DNA from: a virus
Lineage: Duplodnaviria; Caudoviricetes
Virus record (IMG/VR): IMGVR_UViG_3300020450_000030
Coordinates: 1 to 55,732 of that record
Length of the DNA: 55,732 bases
Direction: 5' to 3' (one strand)
Under the pieces are notes generated by a model that saw only the letters and a program-made list of their open reading frames with translations, was not told where the DNA came from and did not search any database. Both the position numbers and the translations under genes were made by a program. Each line of letters starts with the position of its first letter. Position 1 is the first letter of the stretch. Below, one piece after another: positions 10,091-45,700 of the stretch.

Positions 10091-10309
10091 TTAGTTAGCT
10101 AACTTTTTAAGTAAAGATTTTATCTCACTCATATCAGATTTTAGCAAAGAAACATCATTTTGTAAAGCTTCAAATTGTTGTTTCTTAACTTCTTCTGCTT
10201 TATGTGCTCGCATATACTTTTGATAAGTATCTTCATCTGCACATGATAGAGATCCATTGGATGAATCTCTAAACCATTTCTCTGCGTCTTGGACTGGGAT
10301 TTGGCTCAT
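10091..10309 (-). CDS. Small hypothetical coiled-coil protein
   Basis: FRD..NG.L followed by LKSDMSEIKSLL; ATGA overlap with the upstream gene. Confidence 0.8.
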   Translation of the reverse strand: MSQIPVQDAEKWFRDSSNGSLSCADEDTYQKYMRAHKAEEVKKQQFEALQNDVSLLKSDMSEIKSLLKKLAN

Positions 10310-24773: not shown

Positions 24774-24781
24774 TATTTATG
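24774..24781 (-). promoter_or_regulatory. Late promoter (cATAAATA) overlapping the gp7 stop codon
   Basis: ATAAATA about 25 nt upstream of the ATG at 24748. Confidence 0.75.
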
Positions 24782-27700
24782 TGATTATCTCAGGGTCTAC
24801 AACCTCTTCACCATATTGACTTAAATCTGGTGCAACATAATCATCAGGCACAACAGTCTCGACTGCTATGTCTGGGTTTTGATATCCAGTACCTGTATTA
24901 CTCAAGGTCACTCCACCGACACCGACAAGTGCCTTAATATTACCTTCAAATCCAGATATAGAGTCAACCCTTACAGTTGGTCGTGTTGTATATCCAGAAC
25001 CTCCACTAGTGACCTGTACTTGTTTAATGAATCCAGTTGTCAATTGAGCAGTAGCGATTGCGTCTTGACCAAATACAGATCCAAGATAATCGAATGTGAT
25101 TAATGAGTTAGAAGATTCAATAACAGCAACTGTTCTATCTTCAGTCTCACCCTGTATTCTAATATCATCGCCTGGTTCTACAGGAGGTACAATTTCTGCA
25201 GCGTCTACGTCCGCTTCAGAACCAACGTATGAGAACGCAACGAATGTTGATCCTACACGAGGTATTTCTGAGAAGATAATTCTTGAACCAACGATCTCAA
25301 ATCCAATACCAGGTTCCTGTATAACACCATTCAATGAACAGATGATATTGTTCTCAGGTCTAATTGATGATGATTGTACACCATCAGTCAATGTCAATGA
25401 GTAGAATACATCATTACGTTTTAGGTTGAATGATTGACGTAATGAATCAAACTCAAATGATATATCATCTAATTGTCTAAGTTTACCAACGTAGAATCCT
25501 GTAAATGATGCTCCAAGATCAGGTGCTTCAGTAAACTGAATTTGATTAGAGAACGCTGTGTATGCGTTTGTAGCACCTGGTGGTTGTAGAATACCATTAA
25601 TGAATATTAGTAGATGTCCTGCAGGATCTGGTAGATAGGATGTACCATTGTTTTGAGATAAATCGAAGGTTGTTTGTACACCGTCAAATCCTTTGAATGA
25701 TCTCTTAACACGTGCCTTAAGATCACCCTTAGAAGAAATTACTGCCTTATAATTATCAATACTCTTAATAGCATCATTAATATCAAATACCCCTGCAACA
25801 TCACTTAGATATACTCTCTTAAGAGTTCCAACAGTCTTGATATCTTGAACAGTAGCAGATGCAGAACCTGCTTGAGTTATCTTAGTTGTTATTACTGCAT
25901 AACCTTGTGGGAAACTTCCTACTCCATAATCACCAATTTGATCACCATTAGTTAATGTTCCTTGGAACTCTATAGCGTATATAAAGTTATTAGCAATATC
26001 TACACCAGTTATTATTGCGTAAGTATTCAAATCTTGAACACCATTTGCAATCTTATAGAGTCTATTACCAACTTGGAATGTTGCAAGACTAGATATGATG
26101 CTAATACCAAGTCTAATATATCCAGTAGATGCTATTTTAGCACCAACTTTAAGTTCTAATCCATCATACTTAATAACATCAAGGAATTGTCTAGAACTCT
26201 CAGGATATACAACAGAATTAACTTCAAATGATCCTGTTAGAGTTGCAGTATCAACAGTCAATGTACCACCAGTATTATCTGTGACCGCAGCTTCATTCTT
26301 GAGGAATGATCCTGCAGGTTGTGCTGTCTCTCCAGATGTATAACCCTTGAATGGAATATTGTCTGTAAAGTCACCTTGTAAATCAATAATATGAATACGA
26401 CTTTCAATCGCACTTATCTGAGCAGTTGTTGAGTTATTTGAACCAACAATATTATCAGTAATTGCCCAAGGTCCTGCAGTTATTTTAACATCAAGATACT
26501 TGTAGTTTTCATCCTCAAAGAATCCATAAACCACACCATTTACAGAAGCATTACCTTGTTTCTGTACAGTCTCATTCATGGTATAAGGACCATCTGTTAT
26601 ATCACCATCAATTCTAAATCTTTGATATACCTGAACAACTTTTCCTGAATTTTCAAGTATAGATTCAATTTCACCATACACATTACTTGATAAACCATAA
26701 GCATAATCTGCATTGTTTATTCCACCAGAAAGACCAACAGGTAAGGATCTTACACCGAATAATTTAGTAGGAACCTTAATACCATTTTGAGATGTAATCT
26801 GTGTATAGTAAGTTCCTGTCTTAATCTGATTTCTAATAATATCTAAATTATATCTTATGATATGACCTATTGATTTAACATCATAATTTGCAGCATCAGA
26901 GGCACTATAATATGAGAAGAATCCTGCATTAGGTGAAGGAACTGTTAATGTATTATTAAGTGCTTGTTGCATGTATGTTTGAAGAGTGTTCAAAGCATAT
27001 TGCTTAATATTGTACTCATTATCAGAGAAGAATACTGTGCCATCTCCAGACTGATAAGGATCAAGTGCACTCTTAGTAAGTTTAACACCCCATACATAAA
27101 TTCCATCAGTGCCATTACCTGCATAGTTTTGAGAACCTGCAGCGTTGTTAATAATTATTTTATTAGATAGAGTTGTAAAACCGAAGGAGAATGTAGTTGT
27201 AATAAATGCTCTATACCATCCATTACCTAGAGGAACAACTCCTGCAGCATCGTTTGTTATACCACCTTGAGGTGTGAATACAGAACCAATAGTTCCTGTA
27301 GTTAAGTTAAGATCAAAGAAGATTCTTTGTACAGCAGATGTTCCCTCATCAAGTGCCATTTGGAAACGAACTGATGTATATCCACCTGCCTTTATAAACG
27401 CAGAGAATGTAAATGTCTGAGTTGCTGACGCTGATGCAGCACCAGTATCAAATGTCTCGTTAGTAGTGTCAAATTTAACTGTACCAGAGTCAAATGTTTC
27501 AAACGCAGTTAGACTGTGATCTCTATTGAGTGTATGTAGTGCAAGGTTGGTACTTGGTACAATTTTTTCAGAAGTAATTGTAAGATCAGGAGCAGCGATT
27601 GAGTTGTTTACAATGGTTGCTTCAGTTGGAGTCCAATCACTTGCTAGTGCTTCTGGATTAGTGAATAAGTTTATACCAGGAATTTGACCAGTGATATTAG

Positions 27701-30700
27701 ATGTTAGAGTTCTAGCATGTGCAATAGTTTGAACATTTGTTGGTTTATTATACCAATCATATGCACTACCAACTGCATTCACTACACCAACTGCTTTAGA
27801 TGTTCTACCAACAAGTGTATTACCATTACCCCATTGTGTTCCTACAAATGCTCCTATAACAAGGAAAGATGTATCTTCATTCCATTCTAATACTTCTGCG
27901 TATGCACCATTACTTGAGTGTATTACCTCACCTACTCTGAAATTACCTATGATACTTGTGAGTGTGACCTCGTATGCTGTTTGTTTATCAGTTAAATCGG
28001 TAGTGATAATATCATGAACTAAATCATCTGTAATATTGGTAAGGAAGTCATCATATGACCACTGACCAGTACCAAATTGTGTATTAACCTGCTGTGTAAT
28101 TTCCTCTTTATAGTAATTGTAGTTGTAAAGAATATGTTTAGCAGCACTTCTACCTGCAAGTTTAGCAGGTCCTAAGAAGTCAACTGCAATTTTAATTAAC
28201 TCTCTAAATCTAGTAATTACAGTAGATATACTGGTTGGTGTTTCTGTATCTCTATATGCAGTTTCATCAGTCTTTAATGCAGAATATCCAGTTGGTAAAG
28301 TAAATCCACTATTGAAATCATAAAGGATATTATTAAGTGCATGTTCCCCAATAACACCTACCTGTTCTATAGAATAGATAAATGCTCCCATTTCTTCTTC
28401 TACAGTTATTACTTGTAAGTTAGCATCTAGATATGTTTCTAGAGCAGTAATAGTGCTGTTTTGACCACCTGTTTGTAAATCAGATATAATAGCAATTAGT
28501 ATGTCAGAAAGATTACCTTGCCTCTGTACCTCAGTTCCATCTCCAGAACCAGGATAACTGTATGCATTATATGATACACCATTAAGTTCATATGTAAATT
28601 CTGTTGATGTTAGACCAGTTGATTCTTCTGCAATGTATTTTCTGTTAAAGTATAATCTATCTCCACCAATAGCAAAATCGTTATTGGTAGGTGCAATCAT
28701 ATCATTTATTGTTGTGATAAGATTGTCAACCTCAGTCTTAACACCATCAAAGTAATTAGCAACGCCATTACCAGTAATATCCCAATCACCTGTAATGATA
28801 TCGTTAGTGTTGTCATAAGTTAAATCTCCTGTGATTGCTTGTTTAATATAAATTGCAAGACGATCATGAGCAAAAATTGTTTGAACAACTTCTAAACGAA
28901 CTCGCCTTATCTCATTACTATTTCCAAGATAGAAACCTGCTGCCTCAACAGTTCTTGCATTACCACCATTCTCAATATCATTAGCGATTGCTTGTACAAG
29001 TGATGTTAAGTCAGTTTTCTTTTGTAATGTTCCTGCATCAGATAAACCATTATTATTACCTGGTAAATCTAGTACGAGATCAGGATAACGTTGTAGCATA
29101 TCAAATGCTGCCTTGTCAACAATAACACTAGCATTTTGACGAATTAGATATGCAGCATCTCTAAATCTGTATTGTCCATCTACATCAATTTGATTAGTGT
29201 AAATTAAATCAGATGTGCCATCATGATATGATACTGGGAATGGTATTTCTTTAAATCCATTAACTCTACCACCGACAAATTCAGCAGCAGGACTTACAGA
29301 TGTCACTGTAGCAAGATGATCTGTAGGAGATGCTAATATTGCATTACCTAAAGCATCTGTAAATATTGATACCAAGTTGGTCTGAGTAGTGATAACGTCA
29401 GAACAATCTGATAATGAGTAGAATACTTTAGTGACAGCATTTGCTGCAGATGTAGAGAATGTATGTGTATACTGATCATCTGCTTTAGATGCACCAACAT
29501 TTACAGTAAATGTATTTGTGGTATGTGCAGTAATTGGTAAAACTTGAGCAGATGCAGGGTCAGTAGATCTTGGATATGTATGAATTGTAGCATTACCATC
29601 TTTAGTACATGTAAATGATAATGAGTTATCTGAAATAATTACAGAATCTCCTGCAACATCAATTCCATTACTTGTAGCAGATACAAATGTATGTACGTAA
29701 TTACCACCTGTAGATACTCCATTAGCAAGTCCAGATACAAATTTATGTTCATAATTACCACCAGTTTGAACAAGTGCTCTCGTGATTCCATTAGTTGTAG
29801 CGGAAACAAATGTATGAGAGTAATTACCACCTGTTGTAATTGCATCTGCAGTAGCAGAAACAAATATGTGATTAGAAGTATTTGTGGAAGGAGTGCTTGC
29901 TAAGGTTTGAACAGTGATTGTATCATCAGTGACATCAGTGATTGTGACCGCAGTGTTGTAGTTAGGATCAGTTGTTCTGGGATATGAATGGTCTGTAGCA
30001 TAATCGTCTAGTGCACATCTGAAGGTTATTGAATTTGTTGCAATCTTAACTGCAGTTCCTCTTCTTAGATTATGACGACCTATAGTAAGTGTCATGAATC
30101 CTGTTGTAGGATTATACTCTGCATGTGTAGGTGTGAACTTTCTTAATGGAGATTTACCAACGTTGATACTTAGTTTATTATAATCAACATTGAATACTTC
30201 CATATACTTACCACTGATAGGATCAGTAGCACGAGGATATGCTTTATTAGAACTATTTCCATCCATTGAGCAACTAAATGTCACTGCACCATCTGCTAAT
30301 TTAATTCTTTCGTATTCTTTAATTTGATGTCCATGTTGTACAGCATTGGTTGATGCAGATACAAATGTATGAGCAGATAGATCTGATATTGGAGTTCCAT
30401 CTCCATTTACATTAACTGTAATTGTTGTCGCAGTTTCATCAGTGACTGTTAGATCATACTGGTAAGCATAGTCATTACTTTGTGCTCTTGGATATGTCTT
30501 CTGAGCAGTATTACCATCTAATGTACATGTAAATGTAATTGAGTTAGGTTGAATTCTTACTGTATCACCAACTTTCAAAGTATGTGATCCAATAGTCAAT
30601 ACCATATCACCTGTAGTAGGATTATATGTTGCGTTAGTTGGTGTGAAATTAGTAGTTGCAAATGTCAATTCCATAACACCAGTTGTTGCATCATAAGTTG

Positions 30701-33700
30701 CATTATTAGGTGTGTACTGGTTGCTTACAACTCCAGACAATGTATGAGAAGTTGTATTTGAAGGTGTATATCCATCAAGAGCATTGATAGTTATAGTTGT
30801 ACCTGATACTGCATCAATAGGAACTGCCTGAGCAACTAGAGGATCACCTTCTATAATTCCACCTTTAATAGCGGATACAAATGTATGAGTTGTTGTATTT
30901 GTAGAAGGAATCTTATCAAGAACATTGACTGTAAATGTTGTTGTAGTTGGAACAGATGCTACAAATAACCATCTATCACTTGCATAGTCTGTAGATCTTG
31001 GATATGGATGAAGTGTAGCATTATTATCTTCAGCACATGTGAATGTTAGAGATCCATCTTGGAACATAATTGGTGAACCAGTTCTTAATCCATGTGCATT
31101 TGCAGTTGTCACTGTCATGACACCAGTCACAGGATTGTAAGATGTACCAGTTGTTGCAGTATGTCTATCTTGCTCAGGTCTAGGATATAGATGTTCTGTA
31201 GCATTACTATCTTGAGTACATGTAAAGATTAGAGAATTAGGTGCCAACTTAATAGTTGAGTTTGCTTTACTTACACCACCAGATGTTGCACTTACAAATG
31301 TATGAGCAGTGACATTTGTTGATGGAATATTGTCTAATACTTGAACATCAAATGTGTTTGTTGTGACATTAGAAATAGGAATCCACTTATTACTTACAGC
31401 ATCAGTTGATCTTGGATATGTGTGGTTTGTATTATTACCATCTTGTGCACAAGTAAATGTTAGTGAATTATCAGCAATCTTAATTTTCTCACCGTTAGAG
31501 AAGTTATGACCTGCAATAGTCAATGTCATGATACCTGTTGAAGGTACATAGTTTGCATTTGTGACTGTATGGGTTGTTGGAGCAGGAAGACTATGATTTC
31601 CAATAGTTAACTCAAGTGCACCTGTGGTAGCATTATATGTTCCTCCAGTAGGTGTGTAAGCGACTGTTGGTGATTTACCAATATTAACTGTAATTGTATT
31701 ATTTCTCTTAGCAATACCATTTTCAAGAGCAGATAAGAATGTATGAACATATTGATCTTTAAGTGCACCAATACCAACATTAACTGTAATTGTATCATCA
31801 GTTTTAGCAGTAATTCTTAACCATCTTTGTGCAGCAGGATCAGTTGCTCTAGGATATGAATGAGTTGTTTTATTTCCATCCTTAGTGCATGTAAATGTTA
31901 GAGAATTTAATTCAATTCTAACTTCATCATCTGTTGTCAATCCATGACTAGGAATAGTGATAACCATATCACCTGTAGTCTGATCGTAAATTGCATTAGT
32001 TGCAGTTAGATTTGTACCATTAGTCCAGATTGGAAGCGATGTATTATAACCAGGATCATCAGTTCTTGGATATGAGTGTATAGTTCTAAAGTTATCTTGT
32101 GAGCATGTAAATGATACTGCATCTTTGGAAAGTCTGAGTGTCTCTCCAGAACGAACCATAGAATTAGGTAATGCATACTGGAATGTATGAGTTGTAGTAT
32201 TACTTGAAGTACCTACATTTACATCAAATGTATTTGTAGTGACATTGCTTATTGCTAACCACTTATTATAGTAAGGATCAGTAAGTCTAGGATATGGGTG
32301 ATCTGTAGCGTTGCTATCTTGTGCACATGTAAAGACTAATGAATATACATCAAACATCACTCTATCACCAACATAGAATCCGTGATTAGCAATAGTAATT
32401 GTCATCACACCTGTTGATGGATTGTAAGCAGCTCCTTCTGGAGTGTACTTCCAAGCAGTTCTTAAATCATTATCACCAATATTCATGGTCATGAATCCAG
32501 TCTGACCATCGTAGGTAGCATCAAGGATTGTGTAATTTACAGTTGGTGATTTACCAACATTAATACTAAAGTTATTAGCATCAATTCTAGTGACTTCCAT
32601 CCAACCTTGTGCAGCAGGATCATCAGGACGAGGGTAAGATTGTGATACTGTATTGCCATCTGATGTACATGTCATGGTAATAGAGTTTGGTTTCAACTTG
32701 ATTCTATCACCAGTCTGAAGATTATGACCATTAGATGTAATTGTTAAAACACCAGTAGTAGCAGTGTATCCTGCGTCTGTTGCAGTAATTTCACGAGGTG
32801 AAAGTAAATTATGACTATTGCTAGTAATAACCATATCACCAGTTGCAGCATTGTATGTTGCACCTGTAGGAGTGAAGTTTACGGCAGTTGGATAATCAGA
32901 ATCTTTTAAAGTTCCATCATATATTTGTACAAATGAATGACTTGTATCTTGAATATCCCAAGGAACATTATTAATAACAAACTTAGATATTTTTTCTACA
33001 ATTTCAGTTGCAAATATTTCTTGTGGTACATCGTCTTCGATAGTTCCTGTTTGTATTGATACAGGATTTGTTGTTCTATTAACATAACTTGCAGCAGTGT
33101 TCCAAATATGACTATTACTACCATTACGAAGGTCATCTATTAATGCCTGTATAAGAACTTCAAGTCTTGCTAATTGAACACTATCTCCACCTTTTACAGT
33201 ATGAGCAGGATATACCTGTTTCATAATGTATAATGATTCTGCTTTTATAAGTTCTTTGTTTATTAATATATGATCCGCAGCGTTTAAGTATCTGTGTGTT
33301 CTACCAACAAATCCAGCTGGTGCACCAGTTGTACGAGAGGTTGCTAATATTGAATCATTATTAAACTCATCTCCGATAGCAGGAGTGACAAAACCAGACC
33401 AATCTTCAGTATATGTTTGACCGTTAGAACCATCAAAATGAACTAATAATTTAGAGTTTGTATCACCTTGATGTATTCCAGTTGCAACATTAAATGCTGA
33501 TGTATAACGGTTTGTAGTAGAAACTCTTAATTCATCAATGTATCCTTCAAATTCATTAGAGCCTGCATAATCCGCACCAACTCTAATTGGTTTAGCAGCA
33601 AAGTTGCTACTATCAGTTCCAGTTCCTACCTCAGCACCATTTAACCAAAGTTTAGTAGTTGTAGAAGATCTAACAATTGCTAGATGATACCATGTATTGT

Positions 33701-36700
33701 TATTAACAGTTGTGGCACCTGATGTGACAAGATCTGATCCATTTACATTATAACGAATTTGAGCTGCTTCTAGATATACTCTAACAGCAACCTCAGTTGC
33801 ATTTTCTCTTTGATCAAGTAAAGTTGCAGTTCCAGAAATAGCACCAGAACCAGGATTAAACCAGAACTCTAAAGTAAATGCATTAGTTCCCCAAGCAAAC
33901 TCACTAGAAGATGCAATATTTACATAATCACCTGTACCGTCTAACAATAGAGATGAATTACCAAACTTAGAACCTGCTGTGCTAATTTGTGCATTACCTG
34001 CAAATGTTATTGCATGAATATCTTGACCATTATATTGACATCTACCGATCTTACCAAGATAGACTGTTTTTCTTGCCTGACTATAACCAACAACTTCTGC
34101 TTTAGTTCCTTCACCTTCTAATACAGAACCAATTCTAATAGTTTGACCTGCTACAAAGAATCCTGTTCCTTTCTGATTTTTGAATGTTAATTTACGTATC
34201 TTAGCATCTTCTGCTGAATTAAAATCTCCATTAGCATTACCATATTCTATCTTGTAATTTCTAATATCCTCATTCTCTGCTAAATCACCACTAGCATTAT
34301 CATAAGGAATTACATAATTATTAATTTGTTCAGTAGAAGGGAAGTTCTCATTGAATGGAGTATTGTTGTCTGTGAAATCAACAATGTTGACTTGAGAGTT
34401 AGCAATATTATCAAGAACTACGTTTGGATATGTCTGTGATGTAATTCTGTTGAATAGTAAACCAAAGAATGATGATCCTGGTGATATATCAACCTGACCA
34501 ATAAACTCATTAGTTGTAGGATCTTGATATACACTAGATGCAGTGACCTGTGCTACAACACCAGACTGTGCAGCAATAATATAATCATTAAGTTGAATAT
34601 CAAATAGACCTGGTGTAGATTGATATGTACCTGCAGTTTTACTTAGTGTTAATTGATTTGTGACAGATATGTCAGTTCCATATACAGGAACATTTTCTTG
34701 ATGTGATACTGCAGTGGTACCATTCTGTGCTCTGGTCACAGTCAATGTTGTAGAATTAGTATTCTGTGTAATAACATTAACTTTTACAATCTCAGATCCA
34801 AACTGATAATTAACACCTGCTGTAAATGTTCCAGCTGGAACTACCTCATCAGCAGCACTGTTATCGGTTTGATATTTTACAACTTCTATAGATGTAGTAG
34901 AAAGACCAATAGTATAACGAAGTTGAGCAAGAGGTGTTTCTTGACCTGTCTGTAAGTTGACTTGTTCAACTCTTGCAGTATCACCCTCAAAGTTAGTGAC
35001 TGTTTCACCAAATATGAATAAACCACCACTCTGAACACCACCACTGACACTATAAGTTGTACCTGAGAATGATGCTCCACCAGCTAGTGTAGCAGTTATA
35101 ATTTCGTTAGTTTGGAATTGTCCTGCGGTCACAGTTCCACTAATAACAACACCAACCACATTTGTAAGTGTTAATGTAGCACCAGAGGTTGCACCTGTAA
35201 ATACTGTACCTGCAGTGACATCAGCAGTATCAGGGAAATTGCCAGTAGTAATATTTTGAATACCAACATCAACAGTTCTAGTTGCGATGTTAGCAGAGAA
35301 TCCAGTAGCACTAACTGTACATAACTCACCACCACCGCCTGCTGCTGTGGGTAGTAAGAAGTTTCCTTGAGTTATAAAACCAGTAACAGTATTACCAGTG
35401 ACTTTGGTCACTGTTAAACGAGCATTAGTTGAAGTACCTACAACGACATTACCAACACGAGGGAAAATACCACTAATATTAGTAAATTCTAAATCAACAG
35501 TTGGTATAAGATTAATAGTGACATTTACATATTTGACACTAGCAGGTGGTTGTGGTGGTTCAACAAATACTATAGAATCCTGTTGAATTGAAAATGCAGT
35601 GCCAGGTGTTTGTACAACACCATTAAGTACAATCATCAACTGATTTGCGTTAGCAACAATATTGGTTTGATCAACTTGTAATGGGAATGAAGTTCTCTCA
35701 CCATCAAATAGATTTGATATATCATCAATTCTTTGTACAACAGATGTTAAAATATTCTCAGAAGAAGTTAATCGTTTCTGTCTGAATAATACCTCAGTAT
35801 TATTGAATGCAGTATAAACAGGTTCTACAAGAGCAAAGTTTTGTATATTAGGAACTATCGCTTCTTGTGCTAATTCAACAGATTTAGTTAAAGAGAAGAA
35901 TGTTTCTTTGTTAGGAATAAATCCATACTCATTTAAGTTAAGTTCACCAAATACTTTGAATGATGCAGGGTGAACGTTCTTAATAAGAATCTCTTTCCAT
36001 TCACTGATAGAAGTAGAAGATTTAACAGCATAAGAGAAGTCCTGATAATAGTAAGAGTCTTGAATCTTCTGAATAATCTCAGATGGTTTACCAACGTCAT
36101 CAATAAACTGACCAGTGGTTTTAGTGATAGAACCAATCTCAAGAACACCACGAGCAATTTTAAGATCAGTTATAATACCAGAAGACTTAGATATAACACC
36201 AGTAATTCTTGAATTTGCAGAAAATTCTCCAGTGTAATCAACAATCTTAAGAATTCTAGGTCCTACTTGCCAACCAGAGTTAGTAGATACAAATCCTTGA
36301 GCAGTTGCAGTCGCAAGAGAATCACCTTGATATACAAGTTCTCCTTCTAAGAAAGTAGAAGTAATAACATTCGCTTCAGCAGCACCACCAAATGATTCAG
36401 TTAATACTTGTTGACGACCTGTACCTGCGTTAGAGAATGATAAAGCATCACCGAGTTCAGCGTTAGTAGCAGTGATAGCAAGTTTTAATTGATCATCTTC
36501 TAATGAGTTTGCAGTACCTGCAATAGCATAGTATGTTGTATTACCATTCAATCTACCAACCGCACCTGCAGATAATGGGAACTCAGCACCATCACCAGTA
36601 TCAACTACATTTAATGTGACTGCAGCACCATTTTGAATACCATGTGGGAAAGCAAATTGTAGTAATCCTAAGTCAAGGTTTACAACATAGTTAAATGAAG

Positions 36701-39700
36701 ATCTTAAATTTACTGCGGGAGTAGAAGAATATCCTGCACCAGGATCCTTAACTATAATTACATCTAATCTACCATTTTTGATAGTTGCTTCAGCAATAGC
36801 ACCACTACCACCACCTCCAGTGACTACAACAGCAGGTGCTTGTGAATATCCAGTACCTGGGTCTGTAATAGTAATACTATCAAGTATGCTTGTAGAAGTA
36901 AGCTGTGCGTTTATTGGGAATGATATCTCAGGGCGTAGTGTATAATCATGTGGATAATCATAACCAAAGTTATTGTTCTTAAGTTTCTTAATTTTACCAA
37001 CATTAGCACCTTTAGTAAATACAGATGCTCCTGTACCTGCTGATGGTATAACAACTACTAATTCAGCACCTGATCCAGTCAATCCAGATCCAAGAATGCC
37101 AGGTATAGCATTGATATCAATAATTGCTGTGGTATAATTTTTACCTGGTGATGTGACAACTACATTACTGATTTGACCAGGAATTGTTGATCCTTGTGCA
37201 TCAGTGCCATCAGCAACTGTAATTTGTACAAATCCACCTTCACCATCACCACTAATAGGAACGCCATTGTATGTTCCAACAGCGTATTCAGTACCTGGTG
37301 CATTTATTTGTACTCTCTCAATTTGTCTGCTTGATGTAATACCACTAACAATGGGTAATTTAGTATAGAAACCACCAGGATTAACAATACGAACATCACC
37401 AATTGCACCAACCGCTTTTAGAGAACTGGTTTGGTAAGATGCTTGTGATATAGTTGCAGCACCCTCTGGTTCGTTTGCAAGTGGGAATTTAAGTATATCA
37501 GCACCTTTAGTAATAGTAGCACCTGCAACAGAACTAATTTCAAATGTTCCGTTATATGGAGAATCTACAACATCGAGATAACTTCCTGCTACAACAGGAG
37601 AATCATTACCTGTTCTTGATGGATCAAAGTAGTATGATATGTTTGTTACTATATCTCTATCAACTTTAAGTTTTACTGTAGGAGTTGGTTGTCCACCGCC
37701 AGTCACACCAGGTGTACCTACTCTCTCTATAGAGTTAAATGAATATTCTAGTTTGTATAGATTATCTTTTGCAAATGATAAGTTTCCACCTGCCATAGAT
37801 GAATGACTTAGATCAAACAGATATTGATGACCATAATACATCTTCAATGTAGGTGATTTAATAAAGACACTTACAGCAGATGCACTTGTAGCAGGAGCAG
37901 TCAAAGCATTTGATTTTAATTTATATGTAAATTCAAGAGGACTAACAACTCTCTCTACAGCAAATGCACCATCATATTCATCATATACAACACCACTAAG
38001 AGTTTGTGATGGATTACCATCAATGTAAACCATATCACCCTTATCTAAGTAATGACTTGTATCTGTAATTACATAAACCTCATCACTATTTGCTACAGCA
38101 GTTGCTTGAAGAATCTTAGTTAGATTTGCAACTAAAGTGATTTTAAGAACACCTGTTAATCCACTAATTGTTGCTTGTGAATAATCAGCATTAAATGATA
38201 TATTTCCTGCACCTATAGTGACCACAGATCCAACAATGTATGCTGATGATCCAGAAACTTGATCTATTCTTACTGAGTAATCAGCATCAGCGTATGGTTT
38301 GAACGTTGCAAATGAATCAAGATTACCTGTGCAAGAATTAATACTAAACTTAGCATCTCCATTACCACCACTTACTACAACTTCATCTCCAACTAGATAT
38401 CCACTACCTGCAGCATTACCAATTTGAATTGATTGTATAACACCACCAGATGCAGTATAGTTGACGATTAATCCAGTTGCTTCACCATTAGTTGTGGTTG
38501 TAGGAATACTATCACCAGAATTAGGATAACCAGTTCCTGCTGCAGTTAAAGAAATAGTTGCAGGAATATCAGCGATTGTACCATCTAAATCAAAACTATC
38601 CAAATTGATAATAAATGTGCCAGGTGTTTGATTATTGATCTCTGCAAATGTATAATTGCTTATCTCATTAATGTCATTAGGAATATCACCAGTAATACCA
38701 TAATTACTTTGCTCATTAAATTGCTCTGTAGATAACTGACCAGTGGTTAGATCATTACTCCAAGCATTATTATTAACTGCCAAGTATAATTTATTGTTTG
38801 CATCGTCCTTTCTAATAATATAACCACTATTGACAAATTGTCCAGAGTCATTCTTTAATACTAATTTAGAACCAACAGAGAAGTTAAATGCTTGATTGAT
38901 AGTCAATTCTTGTACGTTATCAATCTTAACTGTAGGTGTGACTTTGAAGTAATATCTATCTTTAACAACTGCAGTGACTTGTAGTTTTTGTGAACCTGGT
39001 GAAGGAACAGTAGCAGTTCTAGAACTCCAAATATCTTGAACATGAGTTATAGTCTCAGTGTCCTCAGACATAGTTGTTGTACTATCATCAAAGTCTAATG
39101 ACTGATAACCTGCATCTCCAAGAGGATAACCATTTATATTAATTGTAAGAGGTGAACCAGTGACAGGTGATACAGCAGTTCTTACAAAACTTACACCACT
39201 ATTAGGTTTCTTACCTTGATCTCCTAATCTTACTGCATCAGCATTTTTATCACTCTTAAGACCAAATCCTGCATAATCAATATAATCATAACGACTCATA
39301 TGATCAGTAAACCAAGCATCATCAACCCAATCAATTGTAAGACCATATGCACCTGCAGTAGGTAGTGCAAGAATATCACTAGGAACTGTTGGTGTGACTG
39401 CTCTATTTCTTAAACGTAAGTGATCTATATGGAATTGACCTTGTTCATTAGATCTAAACTGACCTAATGTACCATTCGCACCAGGAATATTACCAATGTA
39501 TAGATCTTTAGCACCTAATGATGTTCCTGATATAGTACCAGTAAGAACTTCAATTCCATTTACATATGCCTTAAATGTATCACCACTCTTAGTGACTGCT
39601 ATTGCTTGCCATGTATTATCAGCATATAAGTTTGTTTGTGATGATGTTAAAGAACTACCTGCAGAGTTGATACTTGTTGTACTATTAGTAATAGTCATGG

Positions 39701-42700
39701 ACAAAGGACCACTCGGACCTGCAGAACTCTGATCATAGTATAAATGTAGTCCACCAGTAGATACTGATGCATCACCTATAGCAAAAAGTGTCTCTTTAGG
39801 CTGAGAGAATACATTGCTGTTTGTAGCATCCTTGAATATAAAGAATTCTAGAGTCCAATCACCTGCAAGTTTCTGTCCTAAATCTGTACCTGCAAATTTT
39901 ATGTTAGTATTAGTCCAAACACTTGGTGCTGCTGTTGTGGCACCCAATATCTTACCCCATCCACCAGAAGTATCATAACTGAAAGAATCACTTGTGCTTG
40001 TAAGAGAAGCAGTATAATGACCTGTAGTATCTGTAAGTGCACTACCTGTAAATGGTATAACAAACTCATTTCTATTCCAGAAAGTTTGTCCAAATACATG
40101 AACATCGCCAGATGTATCAACATCTAATGAATGTGCTTGTAAACCTTCTATATTATCAGCATCGAATTCTGTAGTAGTATGATTTTTGATTGTACCATCA
40201 TATCCAATTTTAAGAACATCAAGAGTTTTATATTCATTAGTATTATTATCTCTAGTGAATGCGATGTTTAAATCACCAAATAAATCAATAGCAGACTTAC
40301 CTGCAGAAGTCACATCTCTACCTGGTGTCAAATAACGATAGTTCCAAAGTAATGCACCTGTACTATCAATTTTACCTACCCATATGCTATCTCTATCAGT
40401 ATCGTTTGCCTTCTGTCTACAAGTAGCATTGATATAGATCTCATTAAACTCATCAATTGCAATGCTAGTGTTTATCATAGAGTGTAAAGAACTAGCGTAA
40501 GTATTAATCCACTCAACAGTAATAGCATTGATTCCAATTTGACATTTACCAACAGCAACGTCTACATCTGGAGAACCAACTGTTGATGCAGTTTCCATAC
40601 AGAAATAAACATCAGAACCATTACATATGATATCAGTAATTCTTTCAGATTTATTTGCAGAGGCAAATTTTCTCTTAATTGCAAAATTACCAGATGTATC
40701 AATAGATGCTATAAATGCATCATCAGGATTTGCTGAGTTTGTATTGGTATATCCACCAATTAGATAACGAGTATCGCTATATTTTTTAATTATTGAGATA
40801 TTATCAGCACGAGTACCACCAGATATACCTGCATATGCTTTTTGGAAGGCAAGTGTAGCACTTAAACCATTTGCTGCCTGTGTGTACTTACAAAGTATTA
40901 TATCAGGGTTATATGCATTAAGAATACTGGTGTTTGGTTTATTAATACCAACAACCCATATATCATTACCATCTACGAATAGAGAATTAAATTCAGCGTA
41001 GTTTAACCCACTAGAGAGTTCAAGAGTTTTTGACCATTCTTTAACACCAGTTGCTGATAATTTAGAGACGAATGCGACAACGTTTCCGCTTGCATCTTTT
41101 GTTTTACCACAGATGAATACTTCCTTATTAGTGTTGACTTTAACATCATTGACTTTAACATAATCATTATTATTAATGAACGATAGGTAATAATCTGCCT
41201 TTTTGAAGATTTGAGGATGAGATAATATAACACGTGGATTTGTTGCATATCCAGAACCAGAGTTTATAATACTAACAGTATCAATAGAACCTACACTTGA
41301 TACAACTGCTTGTAATTCACCATCTTTACCAGTTCCACTATCAATAATAATAGTAGGAGGAATATCTGAACTATATCCAGAACCAGTTTGTGTGATCTGT
41401 ATTTCTTCTATACCTCTATATTGACGAACAGTAAATTGTTTATTTGTATTGTCCATCACAGGAGTATAGTCAACAAATATACTATCACCTGCAGATAAGT
41501 TATGAGGATTAGAAGTTGTTAGAACACCAAAGTTATTTCCACTTATACTTTCAAAGGTATATGCAGATACTGATTCTCCTCTAATACGAGAAACACGTGC
41601 AGAAGCACCATCACCACCAGTTCCTGCATTATCAAAGACTAATCTATCATTTACCTGATAAGATGTACCTGCGTTTTCAATAGTGAATCCAGTGACGTTA
41701 GCATCTTCAAATTTGTTAGTTGTTTCTACTTCAATATCAACTTTTGAGTCAAATCTAACTTTAGGGAAGTAATCAAATAGTTGTAGAGGTGATTCTTCAA
41801 ACAATTGTCCTAGATTAGGTAATGATTGTTCTTCAGCATCTATCTGTCCGTCTCTATTAGTGTCTTCTGGATCAAAGAGTAGTATTTCACCGTTCTCAGT
41901 TGTTAAGGCGTTTGTAGAGGCATTTGGTGCTCTCTCAACATCAATATCAACATTCTCATATGGATCACGATATCTTACGACACCTTCTGGAATATTTTGC
42001 TGTACAGCACTTGTGCTTAAATTCCAACTATCAACAACAGAGTTGAAACTAGGACCTAAGACATAAGGGAATTCTGGATTACCTGCCTCTGTAGCATCAA
42101 TAGTCACAAAATAACAATATCTACCTGTGGGGTAGTCAGGTGTCTTACAGAATCTACCATTGTATTGATCCAAATCACCAAGGTTGAAGACGTATTCATA
42201 ATCCTCAACAAAATTACCTGCTGCTTCATTAGAAAGCAAAGGACCTGCAGTTCTTACGGGAGTTGGATTAGTTTCACTTTGTACAAGAGCAGTTTTTAGT
42301 CTATATGAAGTTCTTAGTCTTGTAATCTCAGATGATTGATTAGTAGGGTCTGTATATCCATAAGGACCGTAAATTGGGTTTCCATCAAATGCCCAACCAA
42401 TAATAGGAGAGTGTGCTAACTGTGTTTCCTGTTCAGTTATAGTTCCTACAGTTGCTTCTTGTAAGTTATCACCAAGAATGAAACGTAATTTTTGTGGGTT
42501 TGATATGTGAGCATACTCACCGCCATACTGATTATTATATCCTTCAAATACTCCACCCTTAGCAGCGTCTAGTATAGATGTTGCTTGTAAGTTATATGTC
42601 CACTGGAATACTGAAGGTGTAAATATTGCACCCTGACCAACAGAGGTCATATTGATAAGTGTAGTTCCTTGAACATACTCAATACCACGGTTGATAATAG

Positions 42701-45700
42701 TAATGCTAGTCACCCTACCTGCATTTTCACCATCAGTGTCTATGGTAGCACGAGCAACAGCACCAAATCCAACACCTTGAATACTAACTTCAGGTGCTGT
42801 AGTATATCCTGAACCTGCTGATATAATAGCGATAGAAATGATTCTACCATTTTGCACAATGGGTTGAGCCACTGCACCAGAACCAGAAGATAGACTTACA
42901 TTAGGAGCACTGGTATAAGAAGTACCACCATTGGTAATATTAACGGTATTAATAGGACCTCTAACACTTGCAGTACCTGCTGCACCTGTTCCGCCCCCGC
43001 CAACAATAGTGATTGATGGTTGTGAAGTATAACCAGTACCACCAGAGTTAATTAAAATACGACTTACAGAACCCTTTGTAATAATAGCAGTTGCTGCAGC
43101 ACCAGAACCTCCACCACCAACAATTGATACTAGAGGAGATGATGTATATCCAGAACCTCCTTCTGTGACTGTGATCTCAGAGATAGAACCATTGACTACA
43201 ACACTAGCAGCAGCACCAGTTCCCCCACCACCAGAAATGGTGATAACAGGAGGAGATGCAGCATCATAACCTTGTCCTGCATTAGTAATTGCAATACTTG
43301 TAATAGCACCAAAGGTTTTGCTTTGTGTTGACTTATATGACCATACAGATACACCATTGACCCATGTACCTATCGGACCTGCTATGATACTATTCTTTGT
43401 AGAAATAGTAGTAGGAAGAGTTGGGAATCTGTTTAACTTACGTTGGTTGCCAGGTAGAAGAGCAGAACCAGGAAACGGACCTATAGAATAGTTGGGTATA
43501 CCAGTTGATGCGACATAAGTGTAATTATCATTAAAGAATGAGTTCTGTATATTAGTGGTGTAAGGTCCGATCGCGTTTAAAATTGTGGATGTATCAGACT
43601 TACCCTTATTCAAGTCAACAGATACTAGAATATTACCTTGAGGTATGATTGATGCGGGTTGTGGTAATGAATATTGGAATACTGTCTCACTATCTCTTGA
43701 AGTGACGGTAAATGTTCCATTGTAGATGATTGGGTTTGCACCGTAGACTGTGACCTGATCACCAACTAGCAATCCATGATTATTGGCACATGTGACTGTT
43801 GCGGATTGATTGTTTACACCACCAAATGTAATACCGCTAACTGTAATCAGTTTTTTAACGTTATATAACCAAGTAGTAAGTAATGGAGATGTGCCAGTAC
43901 CACCTAATTTAGAAACTGTTAGTTTATCACCTTGTAAGTAGTATGAACCTGTATCAGTTAAGGTTGTTTGTTGAGCATCAACAATACCAACCACATTCAT
44001 CACAACTTCTTGAGAAGTTCCTTTGTTTATGAATACTTGGAAGTTGGATGATACCTCTGTAGCAGAATCCCAATCTTCTACTACGCCATTTACGGAACGA
44101 GTACACTCAATAAACTGGTTTAATGATTTTTCTTTGTATTGTACTAATTCTGTAGTAGCACCAGAACCAATTACAAACTCACCGTTTCTTTCTGGCCACC
44201 CAATAGTAGAGTCAACTGTAATGATTGAATCCGTAGCATTTAAAGGTTCAGCAAGTTTAGTTTTGTAAGGTACGGTAAATGTACCGTTAATAGTTTCTTC
44301 AGATAGAACAAGTTCAAATATCTCTACTGTAGATGTTTTAATTGAGATATAGTTTTCAACTAAAGCAGATGCTTGTTTTACATTAGAGTCTGCAATATCC
44401 GCTTCTTGTATAAGGAGACCGTCCTGTATGTCAGTAGAAAGACCAGAAACCTTAGTAGCACGCAAAATAGTGTCTATAGACCATGTTGCTGCAGATGGTT
44501 TGATAATTTGATCTTTAGGATATGATATACTTACTGTCTCACCATATAATAACTTGAATAGGTATGCAATACTAAATGATGTTCCTTTTGCAGAGTAAAA
44601 GTCTTTAATAGTCTTGATTGCTGTGCGAACATCAATCTTGGTATAATCTAGTTCTGGTACATCAGGCAAGAACTGTTCTGTATACTTGTCTAGTAATCGT
44701 TTTACAAATAATGCATCAAGACACTTAACTTCTTTGTCAATAACAGCTGAGGTAGCAGTAGTGTTATTAGAGAATACAGCATTACCATCTTCCGTGTATT
44801 CGACAATACCAGACGCAGCACGTGCACATCCTATGAACTGTGCCTTATTATATCCGCTTCCTTTTTGATTAACTTTGAATCCTGTGACCTCATTTAGACC
44901 TATTTCCGCAGATGCCTCAGCACTTGGTGGTGCTTGAATAACAACAGAGGGAGGATTTGCAGCAGTATATCCGCTACCAAAAGTATTTACGTTAATATCG
45001 GTAATAGAACCGTTGAATATAGCAGCAGTTGCGGTAGCACCTGTACCACCTGCGTATCTACCTGTAGCATCTACTCTATTATCAACAATATAAACGGAAG
45101 GAACTTCATCATATCCGTTTCCTCCGTCAAGAACATCAATACGAATGACTCTTCCATCTCCGTCAACTACAGTTTGTAAAACTTGTGCACCAACAGGATC
45201 TACAATTGCTACTCTAGGTACAACAGTGTATCCTTGTCCTAGATTGATAGTATTGATAGATGCGATAGTTCCATCAGATGCTAATACTGCTTCAAAGGAT
45301 GCAGTAATAGGATTTGAACCCATTGGAGGGTCAACATATATTTTTGGAGGAGTTGAATATCCAAATCCTGCGTTTACTACAGTTAAACCACCAACGACTG
45401 ATCCATTAGAAATGGTCGGAGTGGCAAGTGTAGCACCGCCAGGTTGACGAAAAGTAATTCTAGGGGTAAATGTATATCCAGAACCTGATCCAGTCAATTC
45501 TACAGAAGTTACTGATCCATTCTCTACCGTTGCTTTTAGAGTTGCTTGTGTAGAACCTGTTTTAGTTGGAGACTCTATCTGAACGACAGGAGGGTTTGTA
45601 TCACTATAACCTTTACCACCAGAAAGTAGAGTTATTCCTTTAATACCATTTACCAATGCTTGTGCAGCACCACCAGATCCTGTTTGAGTACTGATAGAAA

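What the first reader, a model, noticed from the sequence alone, without database searches (positions are those of the whole stretch)
29433..32876. Recursively nested domains in gp7 encode a branched, tree-shaped single polypeptide
Seen: gp7 residues ~4607-5754 are built from three segments, A (e.g. FTPT.ATYN.TTG.M.LTI..H.L), B (G..I.L..NSLTFTCxxD.N.T.H.YPR.TDP.....I......TITVNV) and C (HTFVSA..NG(I/V)). There are exactly 11 of each, but not in ABC-ABC order. They balance like parentheses: A1( A2 B2( A3(D4) B3a(D5) B3b( A6(D7) B6a(D8) B6b C6a( A9(D10) B9(D11) C9 ) C6b ) C3 ) C2 ) B1 C1, where D is an intact ABC unit. Internal check: three 'G-KSP' openers (KSPTVN, KSPTVA, KSPLRK) are matched by three 'TGGNY' closers in the stack of C strands at 29661-29870. 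This gives nesting depth 6, six intact leaf domains and about five distinct insertion loops. Inference: several parent domains carry two or three children, so the fold would be a dendritic antenna on the baseplate rather than beads on a string, generated by repeated insertion of a domain into copies of itself. I do not know of a description of this in phage virion proteins, but could not search. The split of C6 is the least certain part of the parse.
Basis: partly seen in the sequence, partly recalled or inferred. Interest (0 to 1): 0.95.

Follow-up and report, generated by a model that had tools for sequence, protein, structure and literature searches.

The report
Self-nested domain tree in cyanophage gp7
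A giant baseplate protein of a marine cyanophage carries eleven copies of one small domain inserted inside each other like Russian dolls with branches, a module that has grown from a single domain at the same spot in related phages.

Summary
Residues 4607-5754 of the 7305-aa gp7 (window 29433-32876, minus strand) hold 11 copies of a ~105-aa domain with no Pfam family. Six are intact and five are split. A profile built only from the six intact copies tiles the region into 20 fragments with complementary profile coordinates. These parse as one balanced tree, reached by 6 of 100,000 fragment-order shuffles.

My parse is D1(D2(D3(D4,D5,D6(D7,D8),D9(D10,D11)))). That gives depth 5, not 6.

Comparative evidence supports growth by insertion:
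- The same site in gp7 orthologues holds 0 domains (S-ShM2), 1 intact domain (S-RIM2), 4 nested (P-RSM1), 11 (this group) or 15 (a metagenomic group).
- S-RIM2's single domain is colinear with A1 and B1C1, which lie 1046 residues apart here.
- Split fragments are as conserved as intact copies and covary with their assigned distant partners.

The "dendritic antenna" shape therefore remains inference. The closest precedent is the recursively inserted HABAS/SBHM domains of cyanobacterial RNA polymerase Si3. Ten literature searches found no description of this in phage proteins. Verdict: a new variant of a known kind.

The parts
24777..46694 (-). gp7-like giant baseplate wedge protein, 7305 aa, host of the array
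   Evidence: ORF list. Pfam Baseplate_wedge 33.9 bits against a cut-off of 27, plus YHYH and Laminin_G_3. Neighbours are gp6-like and other baseplate wedge PHROGs. 90% nt identity to P-SSM3/P-SSM4 gp7.
32790..32876 (-). A1: N-terminal hairpin of the outermost domain D1 (aa 4607-4635)
   Evidence: Profile positions 2-31. Colinear with the upstream flank plus the A part of S-RIM2's single intact domain.
32544..32789 (-). A2+B2 of D2, ending in the GKSP opener
   Evidence: Profile positions 2-83; GKSP motif.
32454..32543 (-). A3 of D3
   Evidence: Profile positions 2-27.
32148..32453 (-). D4, intact leaf, in the A|B site of D3
   Evidence: Profile positions 1-102. Its L013 orthologue is split by a 311-aa insert.
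32013..32147 (-). B3a of D3
   Evidence: Profile positions 26-72.
31704..32012 (-). D5, intact leaf, in the ~72/73 turn of D3
   Evidence: Profile positions 2-104.
31668..31703 (-). B3b of D3, ending in the GKSP opener
   Evidence: Profile positions 73-83, recovered by the gap search at 6.1 bits.
31578..31667 (-). A6 of D6
   Evidence: Profile positions 2-26.
31263..31577 (-). D7, intact leaf, in the A|B site of D6
   Evidence: Profile positions 2-104.
31167..31262 (-). B6a of D6
   Evidence: Profile positions 28-59.
30849..31166 (-). D8, intact leaf, in the ~58 loop of D6
   Evidence: Profile positions 2-103. Its L013 orthologue is split by 185+48 aa.
30717..30848 (-). B6b+C6, closing D6
   Evidence: Profile positions 58-96.
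30648..30716 (-). A9 of D9, sibling of D6 in D3's B|C loop
   Evidence: Profile positions 2-26.
30330..30647 (-). D10, intact leaf, in the A|B site of D9
   Evidence: Profile positions 2-104.
30147..30329 (-). B9 of D9, ending in the GKSP opener
   Evidence: Profile positions 23-82.
29835..30146 (-). D11, intact leaf, in the B|C loop of D9
   Evidence: Profile positions 2-104. One unit (103 aa) is absent here in the L013 group.
29652..29834 (-). Stack of three closers, C9, C3 and C2, each starting with TGGNY
   Evidence: Profile positions 88-104, 86-103 and 87-103. C9 is contiguous with a B segment in the L013 group. The nested assignment ranks 1 of 6 by leaf-trained couplings.
29433..29651 (-). 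B1+C1, closing the outermost domain D1
   Evidence: Profile positions 28-102. 53% identity over 186 aa, together with the downstream flank, to the B+C of S-RIM2's single domain.

Best explanation
Residues 4607-5754 of this cyanomyovirus gp7 form a self-contained insertion cassette. It is built from 11 copies of one ~105-aa beta-rich domain that has no Pfam family.

The cassette grew by repeated insertion of whole domains, or whole sub-trees, into surface loops or turns of resident copies. Four sites are used here: A|B, ~58, ~72/73 and B|C. Five copies are therefore discontinuous. D1's two parts lie 1046 residues apart.

The topology is the rooted tree D1(D2(D3(D4,D5,D6(D7,D8),D9(D10,D11)))).

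Inferred, not shown: each split copy still folds as one domain from its distant pieces. Because the domain's own N- and C-terminal strands are adjacent, every sub-tree, and the whole cassette, starts and ends at the same point. The module can then expand or shrink without disturbing the parent domain or the gp7 scaffold.

The likely result is a compact or branched peripheral decoration of the baseplate wedge. Its role is unproven. A scaffold or adhesin-type surface is my guess.
For: 1. A leaf-only HMM tiles the region with complementary partial hits. The stack parse is 9/9 with 0 left over. 6 of 100,000 shuffles are balanced. 1118 of 1148 residues are covered.

2. Series at one site of gp7, found by searching the two flanks separately:
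- S-ShM2 has the flanks 8 residues apart and no domain hit.
- S-RIM2 has one intact domain, profile positions 2-103. Its A is colinear with the upstream flank and A1. Its B+C plus the downstream flank is 53% identical over 186 aa to B1C1 plus flank.
- P-RSM1 has 4 domains that I read as nested with the same D1(D2(D3 backbone, but the strict parser placed 0 of its 3 continuation fragments on the top of the stack; the reading assumes D3 lacks profile positions 56-72.
- The L013 group has 15 domains on the same backbone.
- By my arithmetic, 11 of 13 records paired by accession have a gap of 297-312 nt, the size of one domain.

3. Leaf D4 here corresponds to an L013 domain split by 311 aa (65/101 identical). 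Leaf D8 corresponds to an L013 domain split by 233 aa (57/105). One unit is absent in L013 at D9's B|C loop.

4. A second cassette sits in L013 where this gp7 has none.

5. Split fragments are as conserved as leaves in orthologues: 87.9 vs 90.8%, 63.2 vs 60.1% and 50.7 vs 54.4%. Core residues are kept equally in 306 intact and 141 split domains.

6. Column pairs that covary in leaves also covary between distant assigned partners. For 39 A|B-split parents the value is 0.059 against 0.005+-0.014 for permuted partners, reached by 0 of 500 permutations. For 84 B|C-split parents it is 0.038 against -0.003+-0.008, again 0 of 500.

7. DCA ladders include 2-5 with 101-103, so the termini are adjacent, and 17-23 with 73-80. 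Many of these pairs rank high in the parents-only DCA.

8. Across 68 homologues, 225 of 281 continuation fragments fit last-in-first-out order, 6 cross and 50 are orphans. Shuffles give 124, 43 and 114.

9. Small indels in the leaf alignment fall at the same places as the domain insertions.
Against: - No structure prediction or complex prediction could be run, so co-folding of distant pieces is inferred.
- Covariation and partner matching can partly reflect shared ancestry of the pieces rather than present contact.
- The coupling-based partner assignment is weak for the short C pieces overall. 24 of 58 score best against about 18 expected, and only 5 of 18 proteins rank first. For the A pieces in this protein the nested assignment ranks 2 of 24.
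- Only 18 to 20 of 58 to 62 nested homologues parse without any unplaced fragment. 50 of 281 fragments are orphans.
- 77 units lack a detectable C, 38 dropped during parsing and 39 left at the end. The AB part may therefore stand without C in some cases.
- BLASTP finds L013's contiguous B equally like B9 (46%) and B11 (about 47%), so which unit was gained or lost there is ambiguous.
- The conservation statistics are biased, because split pieces were found by the same HMM.
- In RNA polymerase Si3, recursively inserted domains sometimes exchange strands (passages of PMC11515920). The same could hold here.
Confidence: 0.78

Rival explanations
1. Interdigitated or swapped assembly. The fragments do complement one another, but not strictly one parent to its own pieces. 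Strands would be exchanged between neighbouring nested copies, as reported for Si3, or between gp7 subunits of adjacent wedges. The object would then be an interlocked mass rather than a tree of discrete domains.
For: [quoted passage not shown]
- The partner assignment for C pieces is barely better than chance overall.
- L013's B is equally similar to B9 and B11.
Against: - In this protein the nested assignment of the three closers ranks 1 of 6.
- A-to-B partner covariation is specific, with 0 of 500 permutations reaching it.
- C9's orthologue is contiguous with its B in L013.
- S-RIM2 shows A1 and B1C1 as one contiguous domain.
- Recalled, not from any call: T4 gp7 is present once per wedge, which makes inter-subunit swapping less likely.
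Confidence: 0.12
2. Only the six intact copies, and perhaps the AB parts, fold. The short orphan pieces (the A hairpins, B3b and the stacked C strands) would be decayed remnants that serve as linkers or form a small beta structure of their own.
For: - 77 units in homologues lack a detectable C.
- The C pieces are short and their detection scores are low, 3.9-7 bits.
Against: - The pieces are complementary in profile coordinates and occur in last-in-first-out order, reached by 6 of 100,000 shuffles.
- Split pieces are as conserved as leaves in orthologues: closers C3 and C2 are 79-82% identical to the L013 group against 60% for leaves.
- Invariant residues are kept.
- The number of isolated closers changes in step with the number of open B|C sites, 3 here and 2 in the first L013 module.
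Confidence: 0.06
3. The pattern is a chance or alignment artefact of a degenerate tandem repeat.
For: Repeats of 60-80% DNA identity are scattered through the region. MAFFT can misplace repeat fragments, as seen.
Against: - The shuffle control.
- The spacing of the DNA repeats is irregular.
- BLASTP, independent of MAFFT, confirms the split and intact relations.
- Truly tandem homologues exist and parse as tandem (P0014, P0017, P0047, P0092, P0096).
Confidence: 0.02

Closest known systems
Si3 insertion of cyanobacterial RNA polymerase beta' (recursively inserted HABAS/SBHM 'hybrid motif' domains)
   Same: - Copies of one small beta domain are inserted into other copies of itself. Several levels are present, with bifurcating nodes.
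- The whole module sits in a loop of a host protein, so its ends meet.
- Sources, all read as passages only: PMC13114784 (six-level, eight-domain architecture in Prochlorococcus rpoC2), PMC11515920 and PMC10895346.
- A GD-box-like stretch (H-x-hydrophobic-x-x-G-D-x-V-x-I) stands at the A|B junction here. This is my reading against the motif quoted in PMC11515920.
   Different: - The protein, the context (a virion baseplate, not an enzyme) and the domain family all differ.
- No sequence relation was detectable. No RNA polymerase chain appeared among PDB hits at E<=10, and there was no Biotin_lipoyl-type Pfam hit.
- This module is larger: 11 domains here, 15+4 in the L013 group (depth 7), and depth 8 in P0007.
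- Orthologous sites here preserve the stages 0, 1, 4, 11 and 15.
Phage T4 gp7 baseplate wedge protein
   Same: - Pfam Baseplate_wedge hit above the cut-off.
- Gene order matches, with gp6-like and other wedge genes adjacent.
- Relatives are annotated gp7.
   Different: - About seven times longer than T4 gp7 (T4's length is recalled, about 1030 aa).
- No PDB chain matched aa 501-1100 at E<=0.01.
- The nested array, YHYH and Laminin_G_3 are additions.
Nested but non-homologous domains of the T4 tail sheath gp18 (recalled, not checked here)
   Same: A phage virion protein in which domain I is inserted in domain II, which in turn is inserted in domain III.
   Different: There are three different folds and one level each. 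There is no self-similarity, branching or variable copy number.
E1_FCCH-like beta-barrel decoration domains of phage tail proteins (PF16190)
   Same: - Weak Pfam similarity over the A|B junction.
- PF16190 is precomputed on 8 of the 120 listed homologues.
- The nearest named Atlas cluster is a viral 'E1 FCCH' cluster, score 0.90.
- FCCH domains decorate siphophage tail tubes (passages of PMC13576161).
   Different: - The score is 18.5 bits against a cut-off of 29.5.
- Only 1 of 18 leaf domains hits it at E<=10.
- This is a lead, not a membership.

Membership tests
Recursive (nested) domain-insertion architecture, Si3 type | A host domain's sequence is interrupted by a complete copy of a domain (A1-B-A2), and the pieces complement one another | tested here: met
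   Partial hits have complementary profile coordinates. S-RIM2 has the same domain uninterrupted at the same site.
Recursive (nested) domain-insertion architecture, Si3 type | Inserted domains are themselves hosts, over several levels, with bifurcating nodes | tested here: met
   Depth is 5. D3 has four children, and D6 and D9 have two each.
Recursive (nested) domain-insertion architecture, Si3 type | Discontinuous pieces form one folded domain in three dimensions | not testable with these tools
Only indirect support exists, from covariation and conservation.
HABAS / SBHM hybrid-motif fold | Sequence or profile similarity to HABAS-containing proteins | tested here: not met
   The leaf profile against all PDB chains at E<=10 gave 7 hits, none an RNA polymerase or a biotinyl/lipoyl protein. 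Pfam gave none. No fold comparison was possible.
T4-type gp7 baseplate wedge protein | Baseplate_wedge domain and a wedge gene neighbourhood | tested here: met
   PF23786 scores 33.9 bits against a cut-off of 27. Neighbours are phrog_219, 677, 708 and 438.
E1_FCCH (PF16190) | Score above Pfam's gathering threshold | tested here: not met
   18.5 bits against 29.5. 1 of 18 leaves hits it, at E 0.086.
Tandem 'beads-on-a-string' domain array | Units contiguous and head to tail | tested here: not met
   Only 6 of 11 units are contiguous here. The feature is met in 6 of 68 homologues.

The most novel reading that the evidence does not exclude
This may be the deepest and largest self-nested domain architecture yet seen. 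A single ~105-aa domain at a fixed site of the cyanophage baseplate protein gp7 has budded copies of itself inside its own loops. The resulting trees have 4, 11 and 15 domains, with depth up to 7-8 in relatives, and every intermediate stage is still alive in different phages. Because its termini are adjacent and it has four or five permissive loops, the domain would act as a 'fractal' building block. Phages could use it to grow branched baseplate decorations without touching the scaffold. A His/Cys/His set contributed by the A, B and C pieces might clasp the pieces around a metal ion.
Probability: 0.55. Interest if true: 0.85.

Novelty: new variant of a known kind. Interest (0 to 1): 0.72.

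Why it matters
A 2026 survey of 48,551 insertion events singles out the six-level, eight-domain Si3 of cyanobacterial RNA polymerase as its most complex case (PMC13114784, passages).

The array described here belongs to a different, unnamed domain family and sits in a virion protein. It has more domains and, in relatives, more levels. Orthologous sites also preserve the growth series 0, 1, 4, 11 and 15. That makes the evolution of recursive insertion directly testable, which Si3 does not offer in the passages I read.

It also explains part of why cyanophage gp7-like proteins reach 7000 aa. It gives structural virologists a defined module to look for at the baseplate periphery. It offers protein engineers a natural domain that tolerates insertion at several loops while being insertable itself.

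The domain occurs in 326 phage records, all marine cyanophages. It is found in proteins annotated as tail fibre, short tail fibre or wedge proteins.

Tried and rejected
- Building a deep alignment for the fold with fragment homologues. MAFFT piled the fragments onto one repeat, misplacing 64 of 87 rows, and the mixed design also failed. I kept only 19 whole-region rows (alignment A1).
- The first parser's 'deeper' and 'left open' counts in close orthologues proved to be threshold artefacts, for example a closure at profile position 93 against a threshold of 94. I lowered the closing threshold and added a closer HMM. I then allowed units without a C. Each version was compared with shuffles under the same rules.
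- Recent self-copying was rejected. Parent-child identity is 37% against 43% for other pairs, and the DNA repeats are only 60-86% alike.
- No known family was found in Pfam, NCBIfam or PDB by sequence or profile.
- A scan of prokaryote genomes with one leaf found no relative. This method finds close relatives only, so the evidence is weak.
- I could not obtain Si3/HABAS sequences for a profile-profile test. The genome search reported the control genomes but returned no loci.
- No tRNA or Rfam family lies in the window.
- Literature searches found no description of nested domains in cyanophage or other phage virion proteins. Only the held library was searched. The supplementary tables of PMC3037559 on gp7 gene clusters could bear on the annotation, not on the nesting.
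- Complex prediction gave no verdict because it was unavailable.

Full report
WHAT THE WINDOW IS

The window is a 55.7-kb fragment of a T4-like marine cyanomyovirus. The finding's DNA is 90% identical to Prochlorococcus phages P-SSM3, P-SSM4 and P-RSM3, where the gene is annotated gp7 or virion structural protein. The ORF 24777..46694 on the minus strand encodes 7305 aa. It carries a Pfam Baseplate_wedge match above the cut-off, plus YHYH and Laminin_G_3 domains. It lies between a gp6-like wedge protein and other wedge proteins. The finding covers residues 4607-5754.

CHECK OF THE OBSERVATION

Read by hand there are 11 A, 11 B and 11 C.

For an objective test I built a 105-position HMM from the six intact units alone and searched the region. 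It returned 6 full-length hits and 12 partial hits whose profile coordinates complement each other. Examples are positions 3-28 at the very start of the region and 28-102 at its very end. A search of the leftover gaps recovered the two pieces that were missed, at 6.1 and 3.9 bits. Real gap hits outnumber hits in shuffled gaps by 218 to 7 at 4 bits.

A stack parser opens a domain when a fragment starts near profile position 1. Otherwise it continues the top of the stack if the coordinates follow on. It placed 9 of 9 continuation fragments and left nothing open. The result is 11 domains, 6 intact and 5 split, at depth 5. Shuffling the order of the 20 fragments gave a balanced parse in 6 of 100,000 trials. 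The fragments cover 1118 of 1148 residues, so there is almost no linker. Within the window the domain occurs only in gp7.

The tree is D1(a:D2(g:D3(a:D4, b2:D5, g:D6(a:D7, b1:D8), g:D9(a:D10, g:D11)))). The site labels mean:
- a = the A|B junction, profile position ~27/28
- b1 = ~58
- b2 = ~72/73
- g = the B|C loop, ~83/87

D6 is closed by its own C. D9 is its sibling. The three TGGNY closers belong to D9, D3 and D2. Depth is therefore 5, not 6.

IS IT A FAMILY PROPERTY?

A whole-library search found 590 proteins at E<=0.001. A second search found 480 at E<=1e-5, all from marine metagenomes and none with a name. In the phage collection the domain occurs in 326 records, all Synechococcus, Prochlorococcus, cyanophage or marine-virus records. 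It sits in giant proteins annotated as tail fibre, short tail fibre or wedge proteins.

After rebuilding the HMM from 209 non-redundant intact units and adding a closer HMM, many homologues parse as balanced trees of other shapes:
- The L013 metagenomic group has 15 domains at depth 7, plus a second module of 4.
- P0003 has six modules of D(g:D(g:D(b2:D))).
- P0005 has 9 domains.
- P0007 reaches depth 8.
- Five proteins are purely tandem.

With a parser that tolerates units lacking a C, I examined 68 representative proteins. Of 281 continuation fragments, 225 fit last-in-first-out order, 6 cross and 50 have no open partner. Shuffles give 124, 43 and 114. Only 20 of 62 nested proteins parse with nothing unplaced. 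The failures I inspected were undetected short or divergent pieces at the array edges, or innermost units without a C. This limits the claim that homologues are always balanced. Split points cluster at profile positions 26-28, 42-48, 57-58, 72-79 and, above all, 83-84. Those are the places where intact units show small indels.

NATURAL 'SPLICED CONSTRUCTS'

I searched the sequences flanking the array separately against phage records and compared sites.
- In S-ShM2 the two flanks are 8 residues apart and the site has no domain hit.
- In S-RIM2 the same flanks enclose one intact domain, profile positions 2-103. BLASTP aligns its upstream flank and A colinearly with this window's flank and A1. 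It aligns its B+C and downstream flank (186 aa, 53% identity) with B1C1 and the flank. Here those two parts lie 1046 residues apart.
- In P-RSM1 the site holds four domains that I read as nested, D1(a:D2(g:D3(b1:D4))), the same backbone as here. The strict parser did not confirm this nesting: 0 of 3 continuation fragments fitted the top of the stack, 2 fitted a deeper domain and 1 was an orphan, because D3's pieces skip profile positions 56-72.
- By my arithmetic on the coordinates, 11 of the 13 records I could pair by accession have a gap of 297-312 nt, one domain. One record has none and one has about 404 aa.

Within the array there are further cases:
- Leaf D4 here is 65/101 identical to an L013 domain interrupted by 311 aa.
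- Leaf D8 is 57/105 identical to one interrupted by 185+48 aa.
- L013 lacks one unit (103 aa) at D9's B|C loop, so its B and C are contiguous there (BLASTP check).

For the last case BLASTP finds L013's B equally similar to B9 and B11. Which unit was gained or lost is therefore ambiguous, although the closer C9 is clearly orthologous. L013 also has a whole second cassette inserted where this gp7 has none. Cassettes thus behave as units whose ends meet.

DO THE SPLIT COPIES STILL FUNCTION AS DOMAINS?

Direct folding could not be tested (see the section on what could not be done). The indirect evidence is as follows.
- In ortholog alignments the split pieces are as conserved as intact units: 87.9 vs 90.8% with close relatives, 63.2 vs 60.1% with the L013 group, and 50.7 vs 54.4% with L022.
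- Core residues Y10, G15, H24, F41, C43, Y54-P55-R56, D59, H92 and F94 are kept equally in 306 intact and 141 split domains. The caveat is that the pieces were found with the same HMM.
- Mean-field DCA on the intact units gives beta-ladder-like couplings. These are 3-10 with 18-26, 17-23 with 73-80, 28-37 with 62-70, 37-43 with 48-53, and 2-5 with 101-103 (termini adjacent). C positions 90-95 pair with 43-51. Many of these pairs rank near the top in a DCA of the split domains alone. For example, 5-101 ranks 17 of 5050 and 21-76 ranks 4.
- The 20 column pairs that covary most between A and B in intact units also covary in 39 parents whose A and B are separated by inserted domains. Permuting the partners abolishes this (0 of 500). 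The same holds for AB against C in 84 parents.
- A harder test picks the right partner among the candidates of the same protein with leaf-trained couplings. For this protein it gives rank 1 of 6 for the three closers and 2 of 24 for the four A hairpins. L013's eight A hairpins rank 5 of 5000. Overall the result is modest: 10 of 21 for A against 5 expected, and 24 of 58 for C against 18 expected.

All of this is compatible with shared ancestry as well as contact. The ladder pattern and the undiminished conservation make continued co-folding the simpler reading.

MECHANISM

Shown:
- The topology.
- Growth by insertion of whole units or sub-trees at a few loop positions.
- Preservation of the split copies.

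Inferred:
- Because the unit's first and last strands pair, a unit can be dropped into a turn of another unit. Any sub-tree then begins and ends at one point.
- The same property lets the whole cassette sit in the gp7 scaffold, and lets it vary from 0 to 15 domains without disturbing the flanks.

Parent and child are not especially similar, 37% against 43% for other pairs, and the DNA repeats are old. The tree is therefore ancient and maintained, not a recent duplication burst.

Function is unknown. My guess is a peripheral baseplate decoration, as a scaffold or adhesive surface. It rests on context only.

COMPARISON WITH WHAT IS KNOWN

Pfam, NCBIfam and the PDB, by sequence and by profile, hold no family for the unit. 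E1_FCCH is a recurrent weak lead.

The closest known system is Si3 of cyanobacterial RNA polymerase. There HABAS/SBHM domains are recursively inserted into each other. A survey of 48,551 insertion events highlights the six-level, eight-domain case of Prochlorococcus rpoC2, with bifurcating nodes, as its extreme example (PMC13114784, PMC11515920 and PMC10895346, passages read). The principle is therefore known.

What is new is the family, the setting in a phage virion protein, the size and depth, and the surviving series of stages. Ten full-text searches found no description of this in phages. Sullivan et al. 2005 listed P-SSM4 orf080 only as a possible tail-fibre gene by paralogy (PMC1079782, passages).

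WHAT COULD NOT BE DONE

The three-dimensional claims are therefore untested, including whether the object looks like a tree.

Noticed in passing
window 29433-32876 (-); alignment A2: His24, Cys43 and His92 of the unit are nearly invariant, and one comes from each of the A, B and C pieces. DCA links positions 43-92 and 55-92. This may be a metal site that clasps the three pieces together.
   Followed up: partly
window ~29380-29420 (-), just downstream of the array; L013 aa 2607.. and 3272..: A similar short motif (Cys-Ser/Ala-Asp-Val followed by a helix-like stretch) follows the cassette here. It also follows both cassettes of L013 and the arrays in P0007 and P0198, and it precedes the array in P0005. 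The host scaffold seems to be a repeat that offers equivalent insertion sites.
   Followed up: no
homologues P0008, P0198 and others: 77 units in 68 proteins have A and B but no detectable C. They are often the innermost unit of a nest.
   Followed up: partly
window 42090-42533 (-) and 33516-33941 (-): gp7 also carries a YHYH domain (aa 1388-1535) and Laminin_G_3 lectin-like domains (two stretches, the best at aa 4252-4393).
   Followed up: no
window 2230-9795 (-) and 10306-17553 (-): Two more giant ORFs lie in the window. One of 2521 aa has an Mtd_N (major tropism determinant N-terminal) domain at residues 6-43. One of 2415 aa has DUF4815.
   Followed up: no
L053 (S-MbCM6, JN371768.1): In L053 a 7022-aa protein that carries this domain is annotated 'gp8 baseplate wedge protein', while a smaller gene two genes downstream is called gp7. 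Whether it is the orthologue of this window's gp7 was not tested here. In other records relatives are called tail fibre or short tail fibre. Names in this gene family are inconsistent.
   Followed up: no
window, whole: No tRNA gene and no Rfam family at gathering score were found in the 55.7 kb.
   Followed up: yes
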